The position numbers and the translations under genes are program-made. A DNA stretch of 64,000 nucleotides from an uncultured delta proteobacterium (lineage in GTDB: Bacteria; Desulfobacterota; Binatia; UBA9968): NCBI GenBank assembly GCA_963727625.1, contig CAVSHR010000006.1, positions 292,782-356,781 of the forward strand. The letters are read 5' to 3'. Shown here piece after piece: positions 43,402-55,233 of this stretch (position 1 is the first letter of the stretch; each line of letters begins with the position of its first letter). The notes under the pieces are model-generated. The model saw nothing but the letters and a program-made list of their open reading frames with translations. It was not told the origin of the DNA and made no database searches.

Positions 43402-44187
43402 ATGAAACGGCGAAGAACGGGGTTTTGGTTTGTGTTTTTTGCCATGGTCTTCCTGCCGGACCTTGTTGCTATCGCCGGGGGAACCGACAACCTCCCGGAA
43501 ACAATTGAAAAAATTAAGCCGTCGATCGTCGGGATCGGCACTTTTCAGCGGACCCGCCGCCCGCCGTCGATCTTTCGCGGCACTGGGTTCGTCGTCGCGG
43601 ACGGGCTTCACGTTGCCACCAACGCACATGTGTTATCCGAAAAAGTCGACAGCGACAAGCGTGAGATCATCGCCATATTCTCGGGAAAATCCAACGCGAT
43701 TGAAATCCGCGAAGCGACTATAGTTGCCGAAGATCTTGACCACGATATGGGCATCCTCAGAATCACTGGGCGACCGTTACCCGCGATGCCGTTGGGTGAT
43801 CCTGATCGGGTACGCGAAGGTGAAACGTACGCGTTTACCGGCTTCCCGATCGGGATGGTGCTCGGTCTGAACGCGGTCACCCACGTGGCGATTATTTCTT
43901 CGATCACCCCCATCGTCATTCCTCAGTTCTCCGGCCAGCAATTGGACAAAAAGGTCTTAATGCGGCTTACCGCGCCTTATAATGTCTTTCAGCTCGACGC
44001 CACCGCTTATCCCGGCAACAGCGGGAGTCCGCTTTATCATCCCGACACCGGCCAGGTCGTGGGTGTTATCAATAAAGTTTTCATCCAGGAGACCAAGGAG
44101 ACCGTGATCCAGAAACCCAGCGGCATTTCCTATGCGATCCCGATCGGTTACTTAAAAAACCTGCTCAAAAAATACGGTATTGAATAG
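43402..44187 (+). CDS. Trypsin-like (S1) serine protease without PDZ
   Basis: Signal peptide; GTGFVV, TNAHV, HDMGIL, YPGNSGSPL. Confidence 0.9.
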   Translation: MKRRRTGFWFVFFAMVFLPDLVAIAGGTDNLPETIEKIKPSIVGIGTFQRTRRPPSIFRGTGFVVADGLHVATNAHVLSEKVDSDKREIIAIFSGKSNAIEIREATIVAEDLDHDMGILRITGRPLPAMPLGDPDRVREGETYAFTGFPIGMVLGLNAVTHVAIISSITPIVIPQFSGQQLDKKVLMRLTAPYNVFQLDATAYPGNSGSPLYHPDTGQVVGVINKVFIQETKETVIQKPSGISYAIPIGYLKNLLKKYGIE

Positions 44188-44529
44188 ACTATTTTTCAAG
44201 TTCACCACCCGCAGGAGTGGGAAATTTTGGATTTCCTGAAAAATTTTTAGAGCCTAAAAATCACAAGCGTAAAAACTCGTCCTAAAGCTAGTCGCTTCAG
44301 CTGCTGAATTGCCGCAGTAAAGGTTTCTTTTCCTGCGGCGAATGCGGCAACCCGTTTATAGGGGATGAGCGACAAGAGCGTGGCCCCAAAGATAAACTCG
44401 GAGATTGCCACCCCGATTCTCGATTTGCTCGATACGCCGTAGCTGGGAATCGCGTCATTGACAGGTGGCGACACCTGCGTTTGTTCACCGGTCGCCTTTC
44501 AATTCTTCCAGGGAGTCTACGATTAAGTC

Positions 44530-45294
44530 TCAGGATGCCAGTCGGCTCGAGGGTTTACCGATATGAATATGCGGGCCCGTAGACGCGCCGGCGACGGCGC
44601 TGCGAAAAGCAATAAACGGTATGCCGCTCTTGCGCAGGTGTTCCATGAGCGCTCTCCCTTCGACACTGTCGGGGTGAAGCCCGACATCCATCGAGTCGCG
44701 ATGATCGAAATGCAGGCGATTATGAGTCTCCGATTGGCCTAGAGCAGTGATCGGCAGCCGCCGTCCGAAGGTTCGAGAGAAATACTTCTCGATACTGGGT
44801 GCTTCTTTGAGCGACCATTTAAATCCACCGTTGAAGCGCGCCAGATCTTTCGTCTCGCTGTAACCATTTACCGACAGCGCCGGCAGACGCTCGACCTTCT
44901 CGCCCAACACCGCTTCGGTGATGGCAATGTCGGTCTCAATCACCGAGTGACGCATTTCATACACCCGTTTGAGTGCGGCGATAAAAGCTTGCTCCGTTTC
45001 CTGGACCTCCGCTTTCGCGATCTGGCCGGCTTGGAAAAGTTTGCGTCGCCTAATCACGTCCGCCCGCAACTTGGCCTGCTCTCGTTCATAGCCAGCTAAG
45101 AGACTGCGGTCTTTTGCCAAAAGATCTCTCATATTTGAAAGCGAATCCCCGCTGCCAGATTGATTGCCCACCCGGATCAGAGCAAGCGGCTGGCCGCGCT
45201 GGAGCGTTATTAAACCTGCAAGCAGCACCGGGAGAATGACCGCGGTGATGAGAAAAGTCCGAGACTTTGACAGATGGGCGAGCATCAACCTCAA
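44530..45294 (-). CDS. Membrane-anchored paralog of 42457-43230
   Basis: N-terminal TM, coiled coil, THNRLHFDHRDSMDVGLHP...STGPHIHIG. Confidence 0.75.
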   Translation of the reverse strand: MRLMLAHLSKSRTFLITAVILPVLLAGLITLQRGQPLALIRVGNQSGSGDSLSNMRDLLAKDRSLLAGYEREQAKLRADVIRRRKLFQAGQIAKAEVQETEQAFIAALKRVYEMRHSVIETDIAITEAVLGEKVERLPALSVNGYSETKDLARFNGGFKWSLKEAPSIEKYFSRTFGRRLPITALGQSETHNRLHFDHRDSMDVGLHPDSVEGRALMEHLRKSGIPFIAFRSAVAGASTGPHIHIGKPSSRLAS

Positions 45295-45455
45295 AGTTTA
45301 AGGGCTTGCGCCGAAACGGTCAAGCCGCAAGAAACTTTGTTGCGAGGCGGTAGGCGAGGAGCCATCAGCCAGCGCGCTTTTGTTATGGGAGCAGCTTTCG
45401 GAGCCGCCGCTGCGCCGACTTGTCGCTGGCATGGTGCTAACCGGGCCATTAAGCC

Positions 45456-46181
45456 TCAGTGAATCGCCTGCCAGCGATAACAGAAAATCGGCGCGGCGCC
45501 ACCCTCGACGACCAGCGCGCCTTGATACCCATCGCCCGGATCGAGTTCCGTCAACGACCAGCCGGGCACGGCAGCGTTGATCTCGACGCGGTTTCCGGCG
45601 CCGTAGGTGATATCTACCTCGTCAAGTGCGCCGGATAAGCCGACACCCTTGGCCTTTAAGAACGCTTCCTTGCCGGTCCAACACTTATAAAACACCTGGC
45701 GCTGCTGCGCCCGAGGCAACCCCGTCAACGCCGCCACTTCGCGTTTGGTGAAGAAGTGATTGGCGACCTCGTAAAACGCGAAATTACTTTTCACAAATTC
45801 GACGTCCACGCCGAGGATCCGACCTCGACTCACCGCAATCAAAGCTTTCTCATGAGAATGAGAAAGGTTAAATTCAAGGGCGCTTTCGACAAGCGCCTCA
45901 GTCAATCTCGGTTTACCGTTCTCCCCTTCACTGAACGGTAAATTTTCGCCGCTAACCTTTAAGTAATCGCCTAATATGGCGCGCAGCGCGACATGGGCGA
46001 CGATATAACGCCGGCGATCATGAGCGAATTTGAATCGATCGGCGCGTTCTTGCTCATCAGGCGAAAGCCGCCTCGGCCACTGAATGACATCGAAGGCCGC
46101 GTCGTTCAAGTGCACCGCCCAGACATGGACATTGCCGTCAAGCGGCGGCAGCGGATCGGGCGCAGCGGGCCAGCAAGTCAT
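45456..46181 (-). CDS. Sfp-type 4'-phosphopantetheinyl transferase
   Basis: NGKP, FNLSHS, GVDVE, WTGKEAFLKAKGVGL. Confidence 0.93.
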   Translation of the reverse strand: MTCWPAAPDPLPPLDGNVHVWAVHLNDAAFDVIQWPRRLSPDEQERADRFKFAHDRRRYIVAHVALRAILGDYLKVSGENLPFSEGENGKPRLTEALVESALEFNLSHSHEKALIAVSRGRILGVDVEFVKSNFAFYEVANHFFTKREVAALTGLPRAQQRQVFYKCWTGKEAFLKAKGVGLSGALDEVDITYGAGNRVEINAAVPGWSLTELDPGDGYQGALVVEGGAAPIFCYRWQAIH

Positions 46182-46408
46182 GGTTGCTCCGCCACATGGA
46201 TTGCTAATTTTCGGCTCGCCTCGGCGGGTCGAGTCACACCGAACCCTCGCCTGCCGCCCGCGGATAAATCCACCGTTCGGGTGTGCGTCAGATCGCCTTC
46301 GAAGGACACTTCGATCGGGTTGCGGTTTTCGCTGACAGAGGGGACGATGTCGGCGGCGTTTTGAGTCGCAGCAATCAGTTTTTCTCCGCCCGTCGTTTCG
46401 CCGGCCAT
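46178..46408 (-). pseudogene. Degenerate acyl carrier protein lacking the DSL serine
   Basis: 76 aa between the ligase and the PPTase, with ATGA overlap; SFEGDL...VDL...FGVT..AE..KL follows the ACP pattern but GADSL is replaced by THTRT. Confidence 0.6.
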
Positions 46409-46420
46409 GAGCGCACCCGG

Positions 46421-47950
46421 CTACCTCGCCAGTAGGGTTGCCGCATCGCGGATGATTTTGCCTGAAGAAGTGCGCGGCAACGCTTCGCGGATGACGATTC
46501 GATCGGGCACTTTGAAATTGGCCAGATTGGCGCGCAAAAACATCAATAGCTCCTTTTTATTCACGCTCGCGCCGGGCCGTGGCACGATCGCGGCACCGAT
46601 CACCTGGCCGCGTTTGACGTCGGCAATCGCGAAAACGATGGTCTCCTGCACACCGGGATAGGTGTAAATCAAATTCTCCACCTCGGCGGGATAGACGTTT
46701 AGACCGCCGGTGATGATCATGTCGTCGCGCCGGCCGAGGTGGTAGAAATAACCGTCGGCGCCGCGTTTGCCGATGTCGCCGGTGTAAAGCCAGCCGTCGC
46801 GAATGCGCTGCGCCGTCGCTTCGGGCCTGCGGAAGTAACCTTTCATCACATGCGGCCCGCGCGTAATGATCTCGCCCGGCTCGTCGACTCCTAACTCCGT
46901 ATGATTCCCATCGATAATCTTGACCTCAACTCCGGGCACCGCGATGCCGATGCTACCGATCTTGGCTTGGGCTCGGGCCGGCTCGACTAAAGTGATCAAC
47001 GGCGACGTCTCGGTCAGACCATAGCCTTGAATCACCTTGATCTGCGGCTGTGCTGTTTGAAAGGCACGCAACAGCGGCAGCGGAATGCTGGTTCCCATCA
47101 TCGCGGCGATCTTCATACTGCTGGTGTCGTAACTGGCGAGATTCTTTACGCCGAGCACCAGTTGAAACACAATCGGCACGCTTTCGAAAACAGTGACGCG
47201 ATACTTTTGAATGCCTTCGAGCAGTGTAACCGGGTTGATCTGATCGAAGATCACCAGCGTATAGCCTTTTTCGGCCAACTCATTGCACACCACCGGGCCG
47301 ACGATATGCGACATCGGTAAGATGCAGCCGCGTATCGTCGAGGCATCCGTGATGCCCATCTCCCCCATAACCCGCGGATACTGGACGAGATTGCGGTAAG
47401 TAAGCACCACGCCCTTGGGCTCGCCGGTAGTGCCCGACGTGTAGAGAATCAAAGCATCGTCGTCGGCATTCAAGCTCGGCAGTGAAACCCTCCGAGCTGG
47501 CGCCGAGAATCGTTTCTCGAAGCTTTGTTCTGCCGCGCCATTGACGATCCATACCGGGACGGCCGCCATCTCTTTGAACACTTCATCGACTTCCGCATAT
47601 AATTGATTGTGCACGATCAAGAGCTTAAGGTCGGCGTCTTTCAAGACGTTCCGCAGCTCTTTTCCCTTGAGCCGGGCATCGAGGATGACGCTCACCGCGC
47701 CGATTTTCTGCGTCGCAAAATAACTCAAGGGGATCGCCGTGGAGTTGGGCAGCAACAACCCGACGCGATCGCCTTGGCGCGTGCCTTCCTGTTGCAAGTG
47801 CCCCGCCAGCGCGTGAACCCGCATGTTTAACGCCGCGAAGGTCAACTCTTCGTCCTTGGTGATGACCGCGGTTTTTTGCGGTTGCCGCGCCGCGGTCTGT
47901 TCTAGAACTTCGGCGGCGAAAAAGCCTACTGAACCGGTATCGTTTGCCAT
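46421..47950 (-). CDS. Class I adenylate-forming enzyme (long-chain acyl-CoA/ACP ligase-like)
   Basis: YTSGTTGEPKG, QGYGLTETSP, YTGD, RRDDMIITGGLNVYPAEVE, LPRTSSGK. Confidence 0.93.
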   Translation of the reverse strand: MANDTGSVGFFAAEVLEQTAARQPQKTAVITKDEELTFAALNMRVHALAGHLQQEGTRQGDRVGLLLPNSTAIPLSYFATQKIGAVSVILDARLKGKELRNVLKDADLKLLIVHNQLYAEVDEVFKEMAAVPVWIVNGAAEQSFEKRFSAPARRVSLPSLNADDDALILYTSGTTGEPKGVVLTYRNLVQYPRVMGEMGITDASTIRGCILPMSHIVGPVVCNELAEKGYTLVIFDQINPVTLLEGIQKYRVTVFESVPIVFQLVLGVKNLASYDTSSMKIAAMMGTSIPLPLLRAFQTAQPQIKVIQGYGLTETSPLITLVEPARAQAKIGSIGIAVPGVEVKIIDGNHTELGVDEPGEIITRGPHVMKGYFRRPEATAQRIRDGWLYTGDIGKRGADGYFYHLGRRDDMIITGGLNVYPAEVENLIYTYPGVQETIVFAIADVKRGQVIGAAIVPRPGASVNKKELLMFLRANLANFKVPDRIVIREALPRTSSGKIIRDAATLLAR

Positions 47951-48924
47951 ATCACAAATGCCCTATGAAATGGTTTGTACCAGCGCGACAGCTGCGCCAG
48001 TTCACCGCGCAGAAGTTTGAGCTTGCCCTGCTGGGTGGCCAGAAAGGCGTCGATGCGGTTGCTGAAAACCGCGCGCCACCACTCAGCCTTGCCGCCGATC
48101 AAGAATTCGCCGTTATTCGATTGATTGAGCGCCGTGATCTCGCCGCCATTGAATTGCACCGTCCACGCTGCCTTGGACTCATCGAGGAATAGCGTGAGCG
48201 ACGTAGTCAGACCGGTTTCGGCGCCCTGGGAGCGGAACAGGGGGTCTTGATTGGCGCTCTTCACCAGCGCCTGCATATGTTCTTGGGAAAACAAGACATA
48301 ACGCTCGCCGGATTGCTGCACCGCCGTCTGCCGCTCGGCTTGAGGTGCGCTGCTCAACGGCGGTGAGCCGCTCGCGCGCTCTTTGAAGAATTGGCAATGC
48401 GCCGCCTCTTCGAGCAAATCGGTCAGCAAAAACGCCTCTAGAAAATTCTTGCCGATCGCTACGGTGCCATGGCCTTTTATAATCACTACCGGATGATACT
48501 TGAGCTCTTCCACGACGAGTTCCGGTTTGGTCACCGTCGGCGTGTCCTGGGCAATGATCGGCACTTCGCCGATGGTGTATTTCTCTTCGAAGCTCAGCGG
48601 CACAAAACTCTCGTGAGTCAAGGAAAAAGCCAGCACCATGGGCGGGTGAACATGGACGATGGCTTGGGCTTCGGTGCCGGCGTAAACCGCCATGTGCATG
48701 GGCGTTTCGCTGGAGGCGTGCTGATCTTTCTTCATCGGCTTGCCGGCGGCGGTGATTTTTACCAAATCCTTTGCGCTAAGAAAGCCCAGCGGCGCATGCT
48801 GCCCGGTGATTAAGAATTGATTTTTGCCAAGCCGGCAACTCAAATTACCGCCCCAGCCGCTGATCAAGCGGCGCTCGAAGAGCGTTTCGCCCCACTGGAT
48901 TATTTCACGTTCGAGCCGGGTCAT
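47926..48924 (-). CDS. Class II aldolase (FucA/Ald2/MtnB-like) fused to a C-terminal SCP2-like domain
   Basis: GGNLSCR, SSETPMH, IVHVHP, IKGHG; C-terminal IDAFLATQQGKLKLLRGEL SCP2-like motif. Confidence 0.85.
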   Translation of the reverse strand: MTRLEREIIQWGETLFERRLISGWGGNLSCRLGKNQFLITGQHAPLGFLSAKDLVKITAAGKPMKKDQHASSETPMHMAVYAGTEAQAIVHVHPPMVLAFSLTHESFVPLSFEEKYTIGEVPIIAQDTPTVTKPELVVEELKYHPVVIIKGHGTVAIGKNFLEAFLLTDLLEEAAHCQFFKERASGSPPLSSAPQAERQTAVQQSGERYVLFSQEHMQALVKSANQDPLFRSQGAETGLTTSLTLFLDESKAAWTVQFNGGEITALNQSNNGEFLIGGKAEWWRAVFSNRIDAFLATQQGKLKLLRGELAQLSRWYKPFHRAFVIWQTIPVQ

Positions 48925-48931
48925 CGTTTTC

Positions 48932-50449
48932 TCAAGATTTAAAGAGTGACCAGGGAATCACTTCGGCGCCAACCGTGCGCGCGGTAACTCCGGGCGGGCA
49001 GATATTGCGGCCGAGAAATGTCCTCACATCGGCGTCCTGGGTTGCCTCCGGCTGCACCGCGCCCGTGAACAATTCGACGGCTACGCCGTGCAGACGCGCC
49101 AAACGCGCCGCGAGCAGGGAGCCGCAAATCGCCTTCGGCCCCGCTTCGGTCAAGTCGTCGTAGAACAAGCAGAGTTTGCGAATTTCACCCTGCGCGAACA
49201 GGGTTCCCATCGCGTTGTCGGAGATCAGCGTCACAGGGATTTGGCGATCGAGGAGTTCCCGCGCCACCACTTGCGCGCCCCAAAGTTGCGGGCGCATTTC
49301 CGGTACCAGCACACTCTCAGCTTGCTCAGCTTTCAAGGCGCTGAGCAAAAAGGCGTACTGATTCTTCGGCGGCACGCCGTAAACCAAGACGTACTTGCCG
49401 CCAGGATCGGAACGGGTAGTTTGACCGGCAGGTTGGGTCTGGTATTTCCGCCGAAACGTTTCCGGCGTATAGAGCGCATCAAATCCGATCAGTTGAGTCA
49501 CCAACGTCGCCGGCGTCAGGTCGAACGAGGGGTAGCGGGCGTTTAAGCCTTGCCCGCTGCCGGCGACCAGGGGATGACCTTGAAATATCAGCAATTCCTT
49601 CGCCGGGCGTTCTTCGATCGCTACGTCGGCGCCCGTCGCCAACGAGCGCGGATCCTGAACCAAAGCATGAAACGGCACGCCATACTCTTTAGCCATGAGC
49701 GCCAGCGGATAGGTTCCGACTTTGTTGATAATATCGCCGTTCTGCGCGACCCGGTCGGCTCCGACGATGATCGCGTCGACGTCGCCGTCGGCAAGCACTT
49801 GTGCCACCGCGCAATCGGGGATCAACGACACCGGCACCCCCGCTTGCGCCAGCTCCCACGCGGTCAAGCGCGCGCCCTGGAGATAGGGGCGGGTTTCGCT
49901 GGCGATCACGGAAAACTCTTTTCCCGCTGCTTTACAATACTGCGCCACTGCAACCAATTCGCCGCTGACGTTGCAATGGGTCAGCAGCCTTGTCGGATTC
50001 GGCAAAATCGACGCTGCCAATTGCGCTCGCACCAGCCGGCCACGAATGATCTGCCGGCCGAACTCTCGAGCTTGTTTGGCGATTGTCGCTCCAGCCGGCA
50101 CGCCGGCGGGTAATTTTTGCAACCGCTCGTCGAAGAAATCTCCCAAACCGGCGAAATCGAAAGTCGGCCGGGCGGCGCAAAACTGTTGGGTCATTTCGGC
50201 CACGCGACAGCGCAGCGCGTCGACATCGTCCTGCACGTGGTTTTGCGCCACCAACGCGCCGCTGTAAAGAAAGGTCAGCACCTGGCCGAATGCGCGGGTT
50301 TTCATGTCGCGCACGGCGTCGATCGCTTGGGAAACGGCGCTCACCTCGATGTAGGAAACCGCGTCGGGCAGAAGAATTTCGTCGAGAATTTTGAATCCCC
50401 CGTCCTGCCACAGGACGGGTTCGAATAGCGGGCTTTGCGCGATGCTCAT
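48932..50449 (-). CDS. mtnA: Methylthioribose-1-phosphate isomerase-like protein with a duplicated C-terminal eIF2B-like domain
   Basis: ARPT, LTHCN, ETRPYLQGARLTAWEL, VGADRVAQNGDIINKVGTY, IEERP, FDLTP; second copy EMRPQLWGAQVVAREL. Confidence 0.85.
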   Translation of the reverse strand: MSIAQSPLFEPVLWQDGGFKILDEILLPDAVSYIEVSAVSQAIDAVRDMKTRAFGQVLTFLYSGALVAQNHVQDDVDALRCRVAEMTQQFCAARPTFDFAGLGDFFDERLQKLPAGVPAGATIAKQAREFGRQIIRGRLVRAQLAASILPNPTRLLTHCNVSGELVAVAQYCKAAGKEFSVIASETRPYLQGARLTAWELAQAGVPVSLIPDCAVAQVLADGDVDAIIVGADRVAQNGDIINKVGTYPLALMAKEYGVPFHALVQDPRSLATGADVAIEERPAKELLIFQGHPLVAGSGQGLNARYPSFDLTPATLVTQLIGFDALYTPETFRRKYQTQPAGQTTRSDPGGKYVLVYGVPPKNQYAFLLSALKAEQAESVLVPEMRPQLWGAQVVARELLDRQIPVTLISDNAMGTLFAQGEIRKLCLFYDDLTEAGPKAICGSLLAARLARLHGVAVELFTGAVQPEATQDADVRTFLGRNICPPGVTARTVGAEVIPWSLFKS

Positions 50450-50476
50450 GATTCGCTAAAAACCGATAGCGGAGGG

Positions 50477-51214
50477 CTAGAGATATTGCAGCGCTTTGCG
50501 CGCGACTTCGATGGTGTTTTTCTCCGCCTCGAAAAACCGCGGCTCGCGAAAACCAAACTTTCCGTGCAGGCACTCGTCGGAAACCGCGAGCACCGCGCCG
50601 GCCTTTTTGCCGCGAACCTGCGCGATGGTGAGAAAGGTCGAAGTCACCATATCGATGCTCGATATATTTTGCTCGTTGAGCTGCTGAATCAGCTCGGGGG
50701 TTTCTTGAAACAGCGCGTCGGTGGTGAAAATCCAGCCGAGATGATAGCGGACCTTCAAGCTATCGGCGGCTTTCTTGAGCGCGTTGACGACATCGCCGTG
50801 CGCGGTGGTGGAAAAATTCTCCGCCACGTAGTAACGCGACGTGCCGTCGCCGCGCAACGCCCCGGTAACGATGACGAGGTCACCGATCTTGACCTCTTCC
50901 TGGAGCGATCCGCAACTCCCGACGCGGATCAGCGCCTGCGCGCCGGCGCCGCAGAGAATCTCCGTCGTAATCGCCGTGTCCGGCGCGTAGCGCCCGCCGT
51001 TGCCGACGGTGACGCGTTTGCCGTCCAAGGTGCCGGTGTACATCTCGTAGTCGAGAAACGTGAAGTTTTTTTGCGAACTTTCCAAAGCCTTTAGAATCAA
51101 TTCGCTGCGCTCTTTCGGACCGGGAATCAGTGCGTAGGGTCCCAGCGAGTCCGGCTTGAGGCCGAGCATGGACAATACTCTTTGCGGCGTAAAGTGGGCT
51201 TCTTTGAGCATCAT
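50477..51214 (-). CDS. Nucleoside phosphorylase (PNP/UDP family)
   Basis: LIPGPKER, LIRVGSCGSL, ALRGDGTS, TTDALFQE, IDM, VLAVSD. Confidence 0.9.
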   Translation of the reverse strand: MMLKEAHFTPQRVLSMLGLKPDSLGPYALIPGPKERSELILKALESSQKNFTFLDYEMYTGTLDGKRVTVGNGGRYAPDTAITTEILCGAGAQALIRVGSCGSLQEEVKIGDLVIVTGALRGDGTSRYYVAENFSTTAHGDVVNALKKAADSLKVRYHLGWIFTTDALFQETPELIQQLNEQNISSIDMVTSTFLTIAQVRGKKAGAVLAVSDECLHGKFGFREPRFFEAEKNTIEVARKALQYL

Positions 51215-52438
51215 CTAAAGTGCCTGCTGGACAAATTCGAGCAGGTCTTGCACGGCGAGCGCCGGCTGTTTGAGCTCCGTAAAAGAACGCTGGCAGAGCG
51301 CGCTGCTCGTGAGCATGAGCTCGGCGCCGGTCGCCGCCGCCTCCGTCATTCGGTCGCGGGCGCTCCATTCGGCCAGCGCGGGGTCGGCCTCAGGCACGCC
51401 GCCGCCGCCGCCGCAACACCACGCCCAGCGCAGATTGCGTTCCATTTCGACCAGCTCGACTCCCGGTATCGCGTTGAGAATTCTGCGCGGCGCGTCGTAG
51501 ACCCCGGCACCGCGCCCGAGATGGCAAGAGTCGTGATAGGTAACCCGTCGGTTCACCGGCTTGGCGAACTTAATCCGCCCCGCGTGAATTAACTGGTCGA
51601 CGTATTCGACGCCATGAAGCGTCTGGAAATCAAGTTCGCCCGTCTTTGTGTATTCGCGCCATATTCGAAGACAGCTGCCGCATGCAATAACGACTTTTTT
51701 GATGCCGGCGGCACGAAGGGTCGTCAGATTGGTTTCTTTCAAGCGTTCATACTCGCGCCGAAAGCCTAAATCGAAGGCGTAAAGGCCGCAGCATTTTTCT
51801 TCGTCGCCGAGAATGACGAAATCTTCTCCGGCCCTTTGCATGATGCCGGCGAGCGCAATCGCGCCGCTGCGGCCGCTGGCGCGGTCGGCCGAGCAACCCG
51901 CGAACAACAGCGTCGTCGCGCCCGACTCGCCCAATTTCTTGAGTCCGAGACCCGTTGCCCAACCGCCCCGTAGGCTTTTCGGCAGGGCAAAAGGATGGTC
52001 ATGCTGCTGCAAGCCTTCATAGATCGGCCGGTGCGCGTCGATGGGACCCTCTTTCTCTGAGATTTCCTCGCGCATCGCCACGGTGATGTCCCACGGCCCG
52101 TAACCGTCGTCGCGCACACCGCAGAGCTCCTGGCACTGGAGACAGTTGCTGCACGCGTAGATCACTTCCTTGAGCTCAGGCGTGATCGGATCGAGACCGT
52201 GAAAAACCCGCTGAGCCATCAGCCATCGTGATTTCGGAGTGTGGCGTTGAAAGCGATAAAACTCATAGGGCGGGCACTTTTCTTTCGGTCCCGGAGCATC
52301 CTCCATCGGATTGGCCGGACCATGGCCGTAGCAAGAGCCGCATAGAACACAGCCGCTGCTGCGCTCGTCAAGTCGTTTGGCGTAAAGCCATTTTTTGACT
52401 CGCTCGAGCCCGAGCAAGATTTTATCGTCGTTTTTCAC
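51215..52438 (-). CDS. GlpC/HdrD-like Fe-S protein with CCG domains
   Basis: CVLCGSC..CP, CSNCLQCQELC, FAGC, EKCCG, CGSC, TYHDSCHLGR, WCCGGGGG. Confidence 0.9.
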   Translation of the reverse strand: MKNDDKILLGLERVKKWLYAKRLDERSSGCVLCGSCYGHGPANPMEDAPGPKEKCPPYEFYRFQRHTPKSRWLMAQRVFHGLDPITPELKEVIYACSNCLQCQELCGVRDDGYGPWDITVAMREEISEKEGPIDAHRPIYEGLQQHDHPFALPKSLRGGWATGLGLKKLGESGATTLLFAGCSADRASGRSGAIALAGIMQRAGEDFVILGDEEKCCGLYAFDLGFRREYERLKETNLTTLRAAGIKKVVIACGSCLRIWREYTKTGELDFQTLHGVEYVDQLIHAGRIKFAKPVNRRVTYHDSCHLGRGAGVYDAPRRILNAIPGVELVEMERNLRWAWCCGGGGGVPEADPALAEWSARDRMTEAAATGAELMLTSSALCQRSFTELKQPALAVQDLLEFVQQAL

Positions 52439-52461
52439 GGAATTGAGAATTTATAGAATTA

Positions 52462-52504
52462 GTTAAGGTTTTAACCTTTATAGCTCGCCAATAGCCGCTG
52501 TCAA
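52462..52504 (-). promoter_or_regulatory. Sigma70 promoter with overlapping palindromic operator (likely MarR site)
   Basis: Minus strand TTGACA (52504-52499), 16 bp, TATAAA (52482-52477); palindromes GTTAA-N4-TTAAC and AAGGTT-TT-AACCTT at 52462-52478. Confidence 0.6.
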
Positions 52505-52625
52505 CTAATTCCGGCGAAAACTGCCAGCTGCGAAAGATATCGAAGAAGCTTGCGCCAAGCCCGCAATTACAGCATGGCGTCGACCGGCCCGGAGGCTCGG
52601 CACCGAGGTGTTTTACTTCGCCGGC

Positions 52626-53093
52626 TCAGTGGCCCTTCGGCGCAGGGGTCGAGGATTCTTGATTGAGCTTGCGCAACAGCGCCGACAGTTCTTTCTGTTC
52701 GGGGCTGTCGAGTGTGGAGAAAATTTGCGCGATGGTTTTTTCAAATAACGGTATCGTAGTCTTGTGCAGCCTCGCCCCTTTGTCGGTCAGCACGACATGG
52801 ACGACGCGACGGTCGTTTTCGTCGCGCCTGCGCAGAACCAGTTTTTTCTCTTCGAGACGATCAACGATTCCCGTGAGGTTGCTGACGGTGACCATCATCT
52901 TGGCGCCGATTTCGCCGAAGGGCAATCCGCCCGCATAGCCGATGGTCGCCAACACGTAAAACTGCGGTGGCGTAAGCCCGGCTTTAGCTAAATCGTCTTC
53001 CAGCTTTTTGTAAGACTGCAAACCAAAGCGGAGAAAACGAACCCAAAGACTGGTCGTGTAGGATGAAAAGAACGGTCGCTTAAAAACAGCCAC
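52626..53093 (-). CDS. MarR family transcriptional regulator
   Basis: GLTPPQFYVL, SNLTGIVDRLEEKKLV.R...DRR...V.LTDKG; start uncertain (53093 GTG or 53129 TTG). Confidence 0.92.
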   Translation of the reverse strand: MAVFKRPFFSSYTTSLWVRFLRFGLQSYKKLEDDLAKAGLTPPQFYVLATIGYAGGLPFGEIGAKMMVTVSNLTGIVDRLEEKKLVLRRRDENDRRVVHVVLTDKGARLHKTTIPLFEKTIAQIFSTLDSPEQKELSALLRKLNQESSTPAPKGH

Positions 53094-53245
53094 GATGCTT
53101 ACTCTAGTCACCCCGGGGTGAAAAAGCAACTTTGCTTGCGCCCCTTGCGGTTGTTTTGGAATGCGAGCGAAAACCCGCGTTGCAACGGTTTTGCCATAGT
53201 GTTAATCCGGCCTTAGCAAATCGCACCCTGCGACGCCAAGAATAT

Positions 53246-53980
53246 ATGCGGCTGTACATACTCGGTTGCGGCGATGCCTTCGGCAGCGGCGGCCGCCAAC
53301 AAAGCGCCTATTTGGTTCAAGCGAGCGACCGTCTATTTCTCTTGGATTGCGGCCCAACGGCGTTGCTGGCAATGAAACGTTACGGCTTTGACCCGCGGTT
53401 CCTCGACGCGATTCTATTGAGCCATCTGCACGGTGATCACTTTGGCGGCGTGCCGTTCTTTTTCATCGATGATACTTACCGAAAGCCGCGGCACAAGCCG
53501 TTAATTATCGCGGGGCCGCCGGGCACGGAGGATCGAATTCGCCAACTGTCCGGGATCATGTACGGCAGCGGGCGGACCCTGGCAGAAAATCCGCTGCATG
53601 TGTTCCAAGTGCTGAGGCCGGATGAATCGCAACAGGTCGCGGCCGTCGAAGTCTTTCCCTTTCGCGTGCCGCATCAGACCCATGATATCTCGTTCGGGTT
53701 TAAAATCGCGTATGAGGGCAAACGTATTCTTTTTTCCGGCGATTCGGCGTGGACCGAGCTTTTTATTGATCAAGCCCGCGGCGTGGATTTGTTTCTCTGC
53801 GAGTGTTCGTTTTACCGCGAACAACCCGGTATGCATGTCAATTACCAAGAATTGCGGGTGAATTTACCCCGCCTGGAATGCCGGCGAGTCGTGCTCACGC
53901 ATCTGGGTGAAGAGATGCTCGCGCGCAAGGATGAACTAGAATTAACCGTTGCGGAAGATGGGATGGTGATCGAGATTTGA
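53246..53980 (+). CDS. MBL-fold metallo-hydrolase (RNase Z-like subgroup)
   Basis: LGCGDAFGSGGR, LDCG, SHLHGDHFGG, FSGDS, LTHL. Confidence 0.9.
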   Translation: MRLYILGCGDAFGSGGRQQSAYLVQASDRLFLLDCGPTALLAMKRYGFDPRFLDAILLSHLHGDHFGGVPFFFIDDTYRKPRHKPLIIAGPPGTEDRIRQLSGIMYGSGRTLAENPLHVFQVLRPDESQQVAAVEVFPFRVPHQTHDISFGFKIAYEGKRILFSGDSAWTELFIDQARGVDLFLCECSFYREQPGMHVNYQELRVNLPRLECRRVVLTHLGEEMLARKDELELTVAEDGMVIEI

Positions 53981-54003
53981 CTTGCGCGAGAACTCGAGCG
54001 GCT

Positions 54004-55233
54004 TTAGCTTTGATCGCTCGGCTCCTGCCGCCAGGAATGTATGGGCAGGATCAAAGCGCGGTAACCGCTCTTGGTCAAAATTGCCTGCGCGGTTTCCTGA
54101 GCCGCGAGCAGTTCGGCGTAGGGGCCGACGCGCACGCGATACGCCGTTTCACCGGCACCGAGCGACGTTGTTTCGATGAACGCGTCGAAACCCTTAGCTG
54201 TAATTTGACGAGAGATCGATTCGGCGCGCTCCCGTTCCTGGAACGACCCCAATTGCAAAACGTAGCCCTCCGAAGCCTTGCCTGGATCGTTTTCTTGCGG
54301 CGCCCCGACCGCGGCCGGGGCCCGCTCCCCGCCTGCACCGACCTGCTGTTCGCTCGACGTGCCCCTGCCGCCCGGCAGTGACGCTTTTAAATTTTCATAG
54401 TTCTCGAAGCCGTATTCCAAGAGCCGCTTGGTGTCGCCCCACTGGTCGCGCGCGCCGAGAATCGCCACGATCAACGTCGTGCCGTTGCGCTGCACGGCGC
54501 CCACAAAACACTTCTGCGCGGCGTGGGTATAGCCGGTCTTGCCGCCGATGGCGCCGTCAAAATTCCACAGCAAGCGGTTATGATTACGCAGCGAAATACG
54601 CCGCGGCACGACTTTCTTTCGCACCACCGCGGTAGTATTCACCGAGCTGAACTTGGTTTGCACGATCTCGCGAAAAGTCGGGTTCTTCATCGCATAGCGA
54701 AAAAGAATCGCTAAATCTCTGGCGGTGGAATAATGATTCGGCGCCGTCAAGCCGTGCGGATTGGTAAAATGAGTGTTGATGGCGCCGATCTGATGCGCTT
54801 TCTTTGTCATCAGCTCGGCGAATCGCTCCACCGAGCCGCCGATGCCCTCGGCAAGCACCATGCTGGCGTCATTCGCCGAAGCCAGCATGATGCCGTAAAG
54901 CAACTCTTCGATCGGCACCGATTGCCCCGGGCGCAAGTAAAGCTTTGATGCTGGAACGCGGGTCGCTTCTTTCGAAACCGTGAGAGAATCGTGAAGATTG
55001 CGGCCGCTTTCTAAAGTCAAAATCGCGGTTACTACCTTGGTAGTACTCGCCGGCGGTAAACGTAGGTCGGGTTCCTTTTGATAGATAATTTTGCCCGTCG
55101 CCGCATCCATCAGCACTGCAGCGCGCGCCGTGAGATCCTCGTCGGGAGAGAAAGCCCAGGTCGAAGTTCCCAGAATTGTGATATAGAAAATGGCTAGAAC
55201 TAGGCTAACCGAAGTCGAATTGCGAAAGCGCAG
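54004..55233 (-). CDS. D-alanyl-D-alanine carboxypeptidase (S11) with C-terminal SPOR domain
   Basis: PPASTTK, SAND, NPHGL, GKTGYT; SPOR LQLGSF..YRVRVGPY; CTG start at 55233 inferred. Confidence 0.9.
   Translation of the reverse strand: MRFRNSTSVSLVLAIFYITILGTSTWAFSPDEDLTARAAVLMDAATGKIIYQKEPDLRLPPASTTKVVTAILTLESGRNLHDSLTVSKEATRVPASKLYLRPGQSVPIEELLYGIMLASANDASMVLAEGIGGSVERFAELMTKKAHQIGAINTHFTNPHGLTAPNHYSTARDLAILFRYAMKNPTFREIVQTKFSSVNTTAVVRKKVVPRRISLRNHNRLLWNFDGAIGGKTGYTHAAQKCFVGAVQRNGTTLIVAILGARDQWGDTKRLLEYGFENYENLKASLPGGRGTSSEQQVGAGGERAPAAVGAPQENDPGKASEGYVLQLGSFQERERAESISRQITAKGFDAFIETTSLGAGETAYRVRVGPYAELLAAQETAQAILTKSGYRALILPIHSWRQEPSDQS

What the first reader, a model, noticed from the sequence alone, without database searches (positions are those of the whole stretch)
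45456..53093. MarR-linked operon joining a DHAP-shunt-like nucleoside pathway to lipid-handling enzymes
Seen: seven tightly packed or overlapping minus-strand genes (CCG Fe-S protein, nucleoside phosphorylase, MtnA-like isomerase, class II aldolase-SCP2, acyl-CoA ligase, ACP relic, Sfp PPTase), behind a promoter/operator and a MarR gene. Established: phosphorylase + MtnA + class II aldolase is the DHAP shunt for MTA/5'-deoxyadenosine, and parallels the fluoroacetaldehyde route in Streptomyces cattleya; it yields DHAP plus R-CH2-CHO. Inference: the SCP2 domain, altered MtnA motifs and downstream ligase imply a hydrophobic 5' substituent whose aldehyde is oxidised (Fe-S protein plus an unlinked partner) and activated as a thioester. 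One speculative substrate is adenosylhopane, which would give the C32 bishomohopanal and then bishomohopanoic acid. Other 5'-alkyl(thio)adenosines are equally possible. I know of no described pathway with this gene set.
Basis: partly seen in the sequence, partly recalled or inferred. Interest (0 to 1): 0.85.

Follow-up and report, generated by a model that had tools for sequence, protein, structure and literature searches.

The report
Nucleoside-to-acyl-CoA operon with SCP2 aldolase
A conserved bacterial operon joins the three enzymes that cut a 5'-modified adenosine down to DHAP plus an aldehyde with a lipid-binding domain and an acyl-CoA ligase, which points to an undescribed route that probably handles a greasy adenosine adduct rather than ordinary methionine salvage.

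Summary
The gene set is real. The five-gene core (CCG Fe-S protein, nucleoside phosphorylase, MtnA-like isomerase with an extra C-terminal domain, class II aldolase fused to an SCP2 domain, AMP-forming ligase) has gaps of 0, 27, 7 and -25 nt. It lies behind a conserved TTGACA-16-TATAAA promoter with a GTTAA-N4-TTAAC palindrome and a MarR gene. The "ACP relic" is not supported, and the PPTase lies 239 nt further on.

The core order holds in 10 of 10 same-genus loci. Ligase, phosphorylase, isomerase and aldolase-SCP2 also travel together in Candidatus Omnitrophota and in other families of the window's own phylum. There they sit beside an aldehyde dehydrogenase, a B12-type radical SAM enzyme, and either KAS/ACP genes or an MMPL transporter with a LolA-like protein.

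The genome has a separate canonical MtnA and MTAP. It has no MtnB, RuBisCO-like protein, MtnN, squalene-hopene cyclase or HpnH, so endogenous adenosylhopane is excluded.

Best reading (0.5): an extended DHAP shunt that turns a hydrophobic 5'-substituted deoxyadenosine into DHAP plus an aldehyde, then an acid, then an acyl thioester. Main rival (0.27): plain 5'-deoxyadenosine salvage to DHAP and acetyl-CoA.

I found no published description. Structure prediction and RNA evidence were unavailable.

The parts
52626..53129 (-). MarR-family regulator (longest ORF; true start uncertain)
   Evidence: PF01047 E 4.6e-17. Present upstream of the operon in 9 of 10 same-genus loci and in both f2 loci.
52477..52504 (-). 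Sigma-70-type promoter, TTGACA-16 nt-TATAAA
   Evidence: Read. TTGACA and TATAA are invariant in 10 of 10 aligned same-genus intergenic regions. Not listed by the scanner.
52462..52475 (-). Palindrome GTTAA-AACC-TTAAC directly after the -10 hexamer; candidate MarR operator
   Evidence: The position is conserved in the genus. A TTAAC-AC-GTTAA palindrome lies in the f2 locus L020 intergenic region. Binding is inferred.
51215..52438 (-). HdrD/TfrB-like Fe-S protein (4Fe-4S dicluster plus two CCG domains)
   Evidence: PF02754 E 3e-28 and PF13183. Best NCBIfam match is TfrB at 134.6 bits against a cut-off of 385. In the operon in 10 of 10 same-genus loci, and in 0 of 2 f2 loci and 0 of 80 Omnitrophota loci.
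50477..51214 (-). Hexameric-type nucleoside phosphorylase (PNP_UDP_1)
   Evidence: PF01048 E 2.7e-34. Best NCBIfam match is TIGR01718 at 138 bits against 280; HpnG gives 25.7 bits against 187. It is the only ortholog of the Omnitrophota module phosphorylase in the genome.
49445..50449 (-). MtnA-like aldose-1-P/ketose-1-P isomerase domain (residues 1-335)
   Evidence: TIGR00512 gives 236 bits against a cut-off of 279. Cys159 and Asp232 align with C168 and D248 of human MRI1. There is a 7-residue deletion after THCN.
48932..49417 (-). Extra C-terminal half-IF-2B domain, fused here; a separate ~160-aa gene in most Omnitrophota
   Evidence: PF01008 E 1.8e-7 on the tail alone. Separate ORFs in Omnitrophota. 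Absent in L062, L086 and L103.
48370..48924 (-). Class II (FucA-type) aldolase domain
   Evidence: PF00596 E 3e-37. E73, H91, H93 and H152 are invariant in 26 sequences.
47929..48318 (-). SCP2-fold domain fused to the aldolase
   Evidence: Profile A4 against PDB: all seven hits with E < 0.01 are SCP2 proteins, best 1.3e-6. Atlas TM 0.85-0.87 on homologue P0199. Only 72 clusters carry it in 1.8 billion representatives.
46421..47950 (-). AMP-forming acyl-CoA ligase (ANL family); overlaps the aldolase gene by 25 nt
   Evidence: PF00501 E 5e-83 and PF13193. PRK06187 gives 420 bits against 476. Groups with the ligases of the module in other phyla.
46178..46408 (-). 76-codon ORF in the ligase-PPTase spacer; not an ACP and probably not a gene
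   Evidence: No family at E 10. No alignment to an ACP. Partial tblastn matches in 5 of 10 genus loci.
45456..46181 (-). Sfp/HetI-type 4'-phosphopantetheinyl transferase; conserved neighbour, operon membership uncertain
   Evidence: PF01648 and PF22624. Follows the ligase in 9 of 10 genus loci at 100-1600 nt. One of only two PPTases in the genome.
53132..53980 (+). MBL-fold hydrolase divergent from MarR; conserved neighbour, role unknown
   Evidence: PF00753 E 6e-19. Below all NCBIfam cut-offs. Present in 9 of 10 genus loci.

Best explanation
The operon is the Binatia-like version of a module (ligase, phosphorylase, MtnA-like isomerase, aldolase-SCP2) that is conserved in at least three lineages. 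It works as an extended DHAP shunt.

1. The phosphorylase removes the base from a 5'-substituted 5'-deoxy-nucleoside, giving the sugar 1-phosphate.
2. The MtnA paralog isomerises it to the ketose 1-phosphate.
3. The zinc aldolase cleaves it to DHAP plus R-CH2-CHO.
4. An aldehyde dehydrogenase makes R-CH2-COOH. This enzyme is encoded in the module in other lineages and is unlinked here.
5. The ligase makes the acyl thioester.

R is most likely hydrophobic. The adduct may be made by a B12-type radical SAM enzyme of the family that sits inside the module elsewhere and has two unlinked copies in this genome. MarR represses the operon at the palindrome next to the -10 hexamer.

Shown: gene identities, catalytic residues, synteny, the paralogous relation to canonical MtnA/MTAP, and the SCP2 fold. 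Inferred: every reaction, the nature of R, the role of the radical SAM enzyme, and MarR binding.
For: - Family assignments.
- Catalytic Cys/Asp of the isomerase and Zn/Glu residues of the aldolase are conserved.
- The five-gene core is kept in 10 of 10 same-genus loci. MarR-NP-isomerase-aldolase-ligase is kept in 2 of 2 f2 loci.
- In Omnitrophota loci with enough flank: isomerase 67/67, phosphorylase 58/61, ligase 44/45, ALDH 69/70, B12 radical SAM 40/45, KAS 36/37.
- The ligase changes position but stays in the array (L098-L104).
- Operons with 4-nt overlaps in the window's own phylum read Lig-MMPL-MtnA-ext-rSAM-NP-AldSCP-LolA-like.
- The module ligases form one group, SH-aLRT 94.
- The genome's two related radical SAM genes fall inside the module radical SAM clade, support 97/96.
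- Canonical MtnA and a second phosphorylase exist apart from the module in this genome and in two complete Omnitrophota genomes.
- SCP2 fold.
- The phosphorylase/kinase-isomerase-aldolase trio is an established route for 5-deoxyribose (PMC6079011, passages read).
Against: - No enzyme was assayed and no structure could be modelled.
- The SCP2 tail is missing genome-wide in f2 genus g2, which keeps the operon, so the tail is dispensable there.
- In this window no radical SAM, ALDH, MMPL or KAS gene is linked. The neighbours are housekeeping genes.
- The genome has no homologue of the MMPL, LolA-like or 472-aa proteins.
- Radical SAM enzymes also release plain 5'-deoxyadenosine, so clustering with them fits the rival as well.
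- B12-binding radical SAM enzymes are not known to adenosylate substrates. HpnH lacks that domain, to my recollection.
- The ligase family name 'long-chain' is below cut-off and says little about chain length.
- Co-transcription of the ligase is inferred from a 25-nt overlap only.
Confidence: 0.5

Rival explanations
1. This is plain salvage of the radical SAM by-product 5'-deoxyadenosine, possibly also MTA. It yields DHAP plus acetaldehyde (or methylthioacetaldehyde). The aldehyde is oxidised, and the ligase converts the acid to acetyl-CoA or methylthioacetyl-CoA. The module sits next to radical SAM genes because they are the source of the by-product.
For: - The trio is the known 5-deoxyribose/DHAP-shunt logic, and paralogs of methionine-salvage enzymes do this job in Bacillus (PMC6079011).
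- No MtnN reaches the cut-off in 5 of 5 genomes tested, so a phosphorylase must clear 5'-deoxyadenosine.
- The genome lacks MtnB, RuBisCO/RLP and a clear ARD, so an aldolase is the only visible exit for ketose 1-phosphates.
- The module lies beside a B12 radical SAM gene, or beside RlmN (L098-L104).
- f2 genus g2 keeps the operon without any SCP2 tail.
Against: - The SCP2 domain is fused in three lineages and strongly conserved, with 49% mean column identity across phyla.
- The ligase is of the FadD/MenE-like type, not the acetyl-CoA synthetase type. One locus has three tandem copies.
- The nucleoside genes are wedged with 4-nt overlaps between an MMPL transporter and a LolA-like gene.
- The isomerase loops differ from the canonical MtnA in all module members.
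Confidence: 0.27
2. This is catabolism of ordinary nucleosides: ribose 1-phosphate to ribulose 1-phosphate, then DHAP plus glycolaldehyde, then glycolate, then glycolyl-CoA. The CCG protein would act as a GlcF-like subunit.
For: - The phosphorylase is closest to uridine and purine nucleoside phosphorylases.
- The aldolase has a weak match to the haloarchaeal ribulose-1-phosphate aldolase, 61.6 bits against a cut-off of 300.
- The CCG protein has the GlcF/GlpC architecture.
- An MBL-fold phosphodiesterase-like gene is a conserved neighbour.
Against: - The match to GlcF is only 26.9 bits against 333.
- The SCP2 domain, the lipid transporter and the KAS neighbours are unexplained.
- The isomerase is nearer to MtnA (236 bits) than to ribose-1,5-bisphosphate isomerase (129 bits).
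- To my recollection, no direct ribose-1-phosphate isomerase of this family is known.
Confidence: 0.07
3. In this soil-type lineage the MarR-controlled operon scavenges exogenous adenosylhopane, or similar adenosyl lipids made by other bacteria. It would give C32 bishomohopanoic acid as its CoA ester.
For: - The chemistry fits: C35 minus C3 gives a C32 aldehyde.
- An inducible, MarR-controlled layout without biosynthetic neighbours looks catabolic.
- The SCP2 fold suits a sterol-like ligand.
Against: - There is no positive evidence.
- The module's other carriers are small-genome lineages with biosynthetic and export neighbours and no squalene-hopene cyclase, 0 of 8.
- HpnG similarity is negligible.
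- No uptake system is linked.
Confidence: 0.04
4. The ligase and PPTase are unrelated neighbours of a three-gene DHAP shunt.
For: The PPTase lies 239 nt downstream and at variable distance in relatives. No RNA data are available.
Against: The ligase overlaps the aldolase gene by about 22-25 nt here and in the relatives. It stays with the module in two other lineages despite changes of gene order. It forms one clade.
Confidence: 0.03

Closest known systems
DHAP shunt / 5-deoxyribose salvage (MtnP or MtnK, MtnA or DrdI, Ald2 or DrdA)
   Same: Both have a phosphorylase, an MtnA-family isomerase and a FucA-type class II aldolase clustered together. In both cases these are paralogs of canonical methionine-salvage genes that exist elsewhere in the genome (PMC6079011, passages).
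   Different: - The aldolase carries an SCP2 domain.
- The isomerase has its own loop signature and an extra half-domain or partner protein.
- An AMP-forming ligase is a fixed member, and in other lineages an ALDH is too.
- The phosphorylase is of the hexameric DeoD/Udp type, not MTAP.
- Neighbours elsewhere are lipid-related.

None of these features turned up in the passages of PMC6079011 that I read. A term search of that paper found 0 occurrences of 'SCP2', 'CoA' and 'aldehyde dehydrogenase'.
Hopanoid side-chain pathway (HpnH radical SAM adenosylation, HpnG phosphorylase, HpnJ B12 radical SAM, HpnN MMPL transporter)
   Same: It is the only described case of a lipid extended by a 5'-deoxyadenosyl unit and then trimmed by a PNP-family enzyme (review PMC13459092, passages). 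The module's neighbours elsewhere are distant relatives of HpnJ (168.6 bits against 577.6), HpnN (E 2e-7) and HpnG (25.7 bits).
   Different: - No squalene-hopene cyclase in 9 of 9 module genomes.
- No HpnH above cut-off.
- All Hpn matches are far below cut-off.
- The hopanoid route keeps the five ribose carbons, whereas this module would cut off three as DHAP.
Fluoroacetaldehyde route of Streptomyces cattleya (5'-fluoro-5'-deoxyadenosine phosphorylase, isomerase, aldolase)
   Same: It uses the same three reaction types on a 5'-substituted deoxyadenosine. It is mentioned as a parallel in PMC6079011.
   Different: There is no fluorinase context here, and that route has no SCP2 domain or ligase. 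This comparison rests on recall and on the cited passage only.
SCP2 domains fused to lipid enzymes (SCPx thiolase, MFE-2, alkyl sulfatases)
   Same: The fold is the same. The Atlas neighbours carry PF02036 and PF14864 Alkyl_sulf_C.
   Different: I do not recall a fusion of SCP2 to a class II aldolase being described, and none turned up (0 papers). The role of SCP2 in the named enzymes is recalled from memory, not tested here.

Membership tests
DHAP shunt / 5-deoxyribose salvage trio | [quoted passage not shown] | tested here: met
   Pfam. Gaps of 27 and 7 nt. Conserved in 10 of 10 genus loci.
DHAP shunt / 5-deoxyribose salvage trio | Activity on MTA or 5'-deoxyadenosine, yielding DHAP plus a small aldehyde | not testable with these tools
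   This needs an enzyme assay.
MtnA equivalog (TIGR00512) | Score over the curated cut-off of 279 bits | tested here: not met
   236 bits, or 201.7 bits by genome search. The canonical paralog scores 448 bits. The RGAPAIG and GALATAGYGTAL motifs are replaced or deleted.
MtnA/eIF2B-related isomerases | Catalytic Cys and Asp (C168 and D248 of human MRI1; their roles are recalled) | tested here: met
   C159 and D232 align with them and are invariant in A3.
FucA-type class II aldolase | Three His zinc ligands and the catalytic Glu | tested here: met
   E73, H91, H93 and H152 are invariant in 26 sequences. The residue roles are recalled from E. coli FucA.
SCP2 (PF02036) | Sequence match over the Pfam gathering score | tested here: not met
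   15.1 bits against 21.3, E 0.03.
SCP2 (PF02036) | Profile-level similarity and fold | tested here: met
   Profile A4 hits T. thermophilus SCP2 at E 1.3e-6 and mammalian SCP2 at E 2-4e-3. TM 0.85-0.87 for homologue P0199, not for the window protein itself.
Acyl carrier protein (PF00550), for ORF 46178-46408 | PP-binding domain with the attachment serine motif | tested here: not met
   No match at E 10. No alignment to the ACP of L091.
Hopanoid side-chain system | Squalene-hopene cyclase and HpnH in the genome; HpnG equivalog | tested here: not met
   No shc match (genome 98% complete). Best HpnH match 43.6 bits against 225. HpnG 25.7 bits against 187. None of the 14 control genomes passes the shc cut-off, so there was no positive control.
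Sfp-type PPTase | ACPS domain plus the AASDHPPT N-terminal domain | tested here: met
   PF01648 E 7e-15 and PF22624 E 2e-10. HetI gives 192.9 bits against 370, so it is not the equivalog.
HdrD/GlpC/GlcF-type CCG Fe-S proteins | 4Fe-4S dicluster domain followed by two CCG domains | tested here: met
   PF13183 and two PF02754 stretches. All named equivalogs are far below cut-off.
Futalosine pathway bypass (considered) | The module occurs where MqnB, MqnC and MqnD are missing but MqnA and MqnE are present | tested here: not met
   4 of 4 f46 genomes have two PF02621 genes and an MqnC over cut-off. 2 of 2 Omnitrophota genomes have none.

The most novel reading that the evidence does not exclude
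SAM serves as a two-carbon donor for lipids. A B12-type radical SAM enzyme of the module's own clade would add the 5'-deoxyadenosyl radical to an unactivated carbon of a lipid, not a hopanoid or any other C30/C40 isoprenoid in most carriers. The phosphorylase, the MtnA paralog and the SCP2-aldolase would then trim the ribose, releasing DHAP and leaving a -CH2-CHO handle. That handle is oxidised and CoA-activated for further extension or attachment. In some lineages the product is exported by an MMPL/LolA-like system. The Binatia-like operon would be the trimming half of this chemistry, with the radical SAM genes unlinked.
Probability: 0.3. Interest if true: 0.9.

Novelty: new variant of a known kind. 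Interest (0 to 1): 0.72.

Why it matters
The DHAP shunt is regarded as a disposal route for small SAM by-products. Here the same three reactions are joined to several other components in lineages that are almost entirely uncultivated (Binatia-like bacteria, Omnitrophota and relatives):
- a lipid-binding domain
- an aldehyde dehydrogenase
- an acyl-CoA ligase
- in other lineages, a radical SAM enzyme and lipid synthesis or export genes

If the substrate is a lipid adduct, this would be a second example, after the hopanoid side chain, of adenosyl-radical chemistry building lipids. It would also be the first in which the ribose is cut back to a two-carbon unit.

If the substrate is plain 5'-deoxyadenosine, the module is still a complete route from that by-product to DHAP and acetyl-CoA that I could not find in print.

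Either way it gives testable functions to hundreds of genes now labelled 'L-fuculose-phosphate aldolase'.

Tried and rejected
Ideas rejected:
- **Endogenous adenosylhopane.** No shc or HpnH.
- **C30/C40 isoprenoid as the universal acceptor.** SQS_PSY is present in only 4 of 9 module genomes. It is absent in 4 of 4 f46 genomes and in Velamenicoccus.
- **SAH as substrate.** AhcY is over cut-off in 5 of 5 genomes.
- **The module as a bypass of the futalosine steps MqnB-D**, which would give a meta-succinylbenzoate for a MenE-like ligase. Rejected.
- **My guess that two conserved neighbours (c67, c90) were ETF subunits.** This was wrong. c90 is a Zn alcohol/threonine dehydrogenase type, and the 456-aa protein of L118 is GlmM.
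- **ACP relic**.
- **A stand-alone SCP2 ORF after the ligase in f2.** hhalign probability 0.3%.

Searches that led nowhere:
- No Rfam family at E <= 0.1 in 44000-54500.
- No terminator-like site on the minus strand in the ligase-PPTase or MarR-CCG spacers. The scanner also missed the promoter found by eye.
- No RNA holder listed for the stretch, so co-transcription is untested.
- Omnitrophota cluster proteins sm, SRPBCC, u163, TIGR04076, PadR, c25 and c65, and the MMPL, LolA-like and 472-aa proteins, have no homologue in the window's genome.
- The 472-aa protein has no PDB relative.

Literature:
- Searches found no paper holding this gene set.
- A term search of PMC10066038 (Omnitrophota) found no mention of aldolase, methylthio, radical SAM or acyl-CoA.
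Supplementary Fig. 12 and the cluster tables of PMC6079011 may list phosphorylase-type clusters that I could not see.

Tools unavailable:
- Structure prediction, so fold search was not used either.
- The search of earlier findings.
- The Atlas does not hold the window's own protein.

Rows left out:
- The intergenic alignment left out L017, where no MarR was found, and the two f2 loci.
- The trees used hand-picked subsets: 13 of 58 Omnitrophota radical SAM ORFs and 10 of 57 ligase ORFs. Only four G000 paralogs served as outsiders.
- ORF clusters made of antisense ORFs were ignored.

Full report
**What is in the window**

On the minus strand lie, in order:

| Gene | Coordinates |
|---|---|
| MarR | 52626-53129 |
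| Fe-S protein with a 4Fe-4S dicluster domain and two CCG domains | 51215-52438 |
| PNP_UDP_1 nucleoside phosphorylase | 50477-51214 |
| 505-aa IF-2B/MtnA-like protein | 48932-50449 |
| 332-aa class II aldolase | 47926-48924 |
| AMP-binding ligase | 46421-47950 |
| 76-codon ORF | 46178-46408 |
| Sfp/HetI-type PPTase | 45456-46181 |

Pfam and NCBIfam confirm all of them except the small ORF. No gene reaches an NCBIfam equivalog cut-off:
- phosphorylase, best match TIGR01718: 138 bits against 280
- isomerase, TIGR00512: 236 against 279
- aldolase, PRK08660: 135 against 203
- ligase, PRK06187: 420 against 476

The gaps from the CCG gene to the ligase are 0, 27, 7 and -25 nt. The PPTase starts 239 nt after the ligase. 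The small ORF matches nothing at E 10 and does not align with a true ACP, so it is not an ACP.

Genes further out are housekeeping: YceG, holA, a D-Ala-D-Ala carboxypeptidase, a glucan phosphorylase-like gene and a NUDIX gene.

**Promoter and operator**

The 187-nt spacer between MarR and the CCG gene holds TTGACA (52504-52499), 16 nt, TATAAA (52482-52477). The perfect palindrome GTTAA-AACC-TTAAC (52475-52462) follows directly.

I aligned the window with nine same-genus loci. TTGACA and TATAA are invariant in 10 of 10, and the palindrome region is conserved. L017 and the f2 loci were left out of that alignment. The f2 locus L020 has TTGACA and a TTAAC-AC-GTTAA palindrome. The pattern scanner did not list the site. 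MarR binding there is inferred.

**The two fusions**

The aldolase tail (residues about 203-332) scores below the Pfam SCP2 cut-off (E 0.03), but three other results support an SCP2 fold:
- The tail family is small. It has 72 clusters at E <= 0.001 among 1.84 billion representatives, mostly 320-340-aa proteins of the same architecture.
- A profile of 23 tails from several lineages hits only SCP2 proteins in the PDB at E < 0.01: T. thermophilus SCP2 at 1.3e-6, and rabbit and human SCP2 at 2-4e-3.
- The Atlas model of homologue P0199 superposes on stand-alone SCP2 clusters at TM 0.85-0.87.

The aldolase half keeps E73, H91, H93 and H152 in all 26 aligned sequences.

The isomerase keeps the Cys and Asp that align with C168 and D248 of human MRI1. 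All module isomerases examined (six, from two phyla) differ from the genome's own canonical MtnA in three ways:
- They share THCNVS-GEL, a 7-residue deletion.
- They have MKTRAFGQ in place of RGAPAIG.
- They have a 5-residue deletion after RPT.

The last 170 residues of the isomerase are a degenerate copy of the C-terminal IF-2B subdomain. In most Omnitrophota this is a separate, overlapping gene of about 160 codons, and in some it is absent.

**Synteny**

The 120 best homologues of the aldolase-SCP2 protein are 73-100% identical over at least 98% of its length. The few named ones are called Candidatus Binatia/Binatota, and one is called Chloroflexota.

The full-length fusion is found in 23 of 24 same-genus genomes. 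G018 has it in two pieces. G017, which is 80% complete, lacks it. The tally includes the unpublished genome G005.

In 15 fetched loci:

| Group | Loci | Arrangement |
|---|---|---|
| Same genus | 10 | CCG-NP-isomerase-aldolase-SCP2-ligase in all 10; MarR, the divergent MBL gene and the PPTase each in 9 of 10 |
| Family f2 | 2 | MarR-NP-isomerase-aldolase (no tail)-ligase; no CCG or PPTase |
| Family f3 | 3 | Only NP and aldolase are near each other, next to TctC, amidohydrolase and SDR genes |

A scan of one genome per species with a closer alignment found 204 relatives. The best 80 loci are almost all Candidatus Omnitrophota, including the complete genome of Ca. Velamenicoccus archaeovorus. 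The usual order there is PadR-ligase-NP-isomerase-ext-aldolase-SCP2-ALDH-B12 radical SAM-small protein-SRPBCC-ApbA/PanE-like-TIGR04076-KAS-KAS(-ACP)-cyclase.

Among Omnitrophota loci with enough flank:

| Gene | Present |
|---|---|
| Isomerase | 67/67 |
| Phosphorylase | 58/61 |
| Ligase | 44/45 |
| ALDH | 69/70 |
| Radical SAM | 40/45 |
| KAS | 36/37 |

In L098, L100, L103 and L104 the order is NP-isomerase-aldolase-ALDH-ligase-RlmN. The ligase moves but stays in the array.

A sample of 201 genomes of the window's phylum has the tail domain in 20. Ten carry it as fusions and about ten as stand-alone ORFs of roughly 145 aa. Loci from those genomes show operons with 4-nt overlaps:
- L117: ligase-768-aa protein-isomerase-ext-B12 radical SAM-NP-aldolase-SCP2-291-aa protein-473-aa protein
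- L114: 767-aa protein-radical SAM-NP-isomerase-ext-aldolase-SCP2-ALDH-287-aa protein-472-aa protein-ligase

The 767-aa protein matches MmpL3 and HpnN over its last 100-160 residues (E 4e-10 to 2e-7). It has the 1+5/1+5-like pattern of hydrophobic segments with two large loops. The 287-aa protein matches outer-membrane lipoprotein-sorting (LolA-like) proteins at E 1e-26.

The 20 module-linked ligases form one group (SH-aLRT 94, quick tree) apart from four paralogs of the window's genome.

**Genome context**

The window's genome is 98% complete.

Present:
- a canonical MtnA (448 bits)
- a canonical MTAP (320 bits)
- AhcY

Absent or below cut-off:
- MtnB; the best match is the window aldolase itself at 58.5 bits
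- ARD, only a borderline match
- RuBisCO/RLP
- MtnN
- squalene-hopene cyclase
- HpnH

Two complete Omnitrophota genomes likewise hold a canonical MtnA (408 and 433 bits) and a second PNP_UDP_1 gene apart from the module. The module is therefore a paralogous pathway in both phyla.

The genome has no homologue of the MMPL, LolA-like, SRPBCC, TIGR04076 or PadR proteins. It does have two B12 radical SAM genes, at C9 and C3. In a tree these are sister to the module radical SAM genes of its own phylum (96/95). They lie inside the module clade (97/96), far from two other B12 radical SAM genes of the same genome.

The window PPTase is one of only two PPTases in the genome. The other, an AcpS type, lies next to the canonical MtnA.

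**Interpretation**

The trio of phosphorylase, MtnA paralog and FucA-type aldolase is the established logic of the DHAP shunt and 5-deoxyribose salvage (PMC6079011, passages read). Three things are new here:
- the fixed ligase
- the ALDH in other lineages
- the two fusions

The oxidising enzyme is an ordinary ALDH, not the CCG protein, which belongs to the operon in one genus only.

The nature of the 5' substituent is open. A hydrophobic group is favoured by three observations:
- the SCP2 fold is conserved across phyla
- the ligase is of the FadD/MenE-like type
- the nucleoside genes are embedded between lipid export or lipid synthesis genes

Against a hydrophobic group:
- f2 genus g2 keeps the operon without any tail domain in its genome
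- nothing lipid-related is linked in this window
- clustering with radical SAM genes is equally expected if the substrate is their by-product, 5'-deoxyadenosine

My estimates:

| Reading | Probability |
|---|---|
| Hydrophobic 5'-substituted adenosine | 0.50 |
| Plain 5'-deoxyadenosine/MTA salvage to DHAP plus acetyl-CoA | 0.27 |
| Ordinary nucleosides via glycolaldehyde | 0.07 |
| Scavenging of exogenous adenosylhopane | 0.04 |
| Unrelated adjacency of the ligase | 0.03 |

**Specific ideas tested and rejected**

- Adenosylhopane made by the cell: no shc in 9 of 9 module genomes.
- A C30/C40 isoprenoid acceptor in general: SQS_PSY in 4 of 9 genomes.
- SAH: AhcY is present in 5 of 5 genomes.
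- A futalosine bypass: the full pathway is present in 4 of 4 f46 genomes, and no pathway exists in 2 of 2 Omnitrophota.

**Novelty**

Searches of the held library found no paper with this gene set. A 2026 review of lipid-modifying radical SAM enzymes names only HpnH/HpnG for adenosylated lipids (PMC13459092, passages). A term search of the main Omnitrophota genomics paper found none of aldolase, methylthio, radical SAM or acyl-CoA (PMC10066038). Supplements were closed.

I rate it a new variant of a known kind. If the radical SAM enzyme adenosylates a lipid, it would be a new kind of lipid chemistry.

**Limits**

- There are no structure models, no RNA data and no biochemistry.
- Gene starts are those of the longest ORFs.
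- The MMPL assignment rests on a partial PDB match plus topology.
- Both trees used small, hand-picked sets.
- Relatives are not independent, so the counts show conservation and are not statistics.

Noticed in passing
L112 8412-12275 (G000:C3:94400-98270): A second trio sits in the same genome: aldehyde dehydrogenase, AMP-ligase and a 236-aa class II aldolase, followed by DUF1614. It has no phosphorylase, isomerase or SCP2. The aldolase-ALDH-ligase logic recurs here.
   Followed up: partly
L108 about 9476-9796 (G000:C12:443475-443795): The genome's only AcpS-type PPTase lies about 430 nt upstream of the canonical MtnA on the same strand. The only Sfp-type PPTase lies after the module ligase. 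So a PPTase sits beside an MtnA-family gene twice in one genome.
   Followed up: no
L109 8797-9987 (G000:C4); L098, L100, L103, L104: An RlmN-type radical SAM gene lies directly upstream of the canonical MTAP in the window's genome. Its Omnitrophota homologue (45% identity) lies directly after the module ligase in four loci.
   Followed up: partly
window 53132-53980 (+): An MBL-fold hydrolase is divergent from MarR, with only 2 nt between the longest ORFs. It is conserved in 9 of 10 genus loci and lies within 8 kb in the f3 loci. It is nearest to cyclic-nucleotide phosphodiesterase and RNase Z models but far below their cut-offs.
   Followed up: partly
window 44530-45294 (-): A 254-aa protein with no Pfam or NCBIfam match is conserved downstream of the PPTase. 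It has a second, 43-54% identical copy nearby in several relatives.
   Followed up: no
L110 4308-10140 (G000:C9): One of the genome's two module-clade B12 radical SAM genes heads an operon with an SDR, a FAD_binding_4 oxidase, a TENA/PQQC/haem-oxygenase-like protein and an O-methyltransferase.
   Followed up: partly
L113 172-4570: Three tandem paralogs of the module ligase lie in one locus of a 2.5-Mb genome of the window's phylum.
   Followed up: no
L020 2815-6279; L022 5360-9022; L023 12409-15879: A UvrD/AddA-type helicase-nuclease of about 1150-1220 aa lies directly upstream of the MarR/phosphorylase genes in families f2 and f3, but not in the window's genus. The Pfam check was done on L020 only.
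   Followed up: no
L016 12512-13226; L024 8239-14239: Several module genes match in two pieces in these relatives: the PPTase in L016, and the ligase, aldolase, isomerase, phosphorylase and CCG genes in L024. These are likely frameshifts or assembly errors.
   Followed up: no
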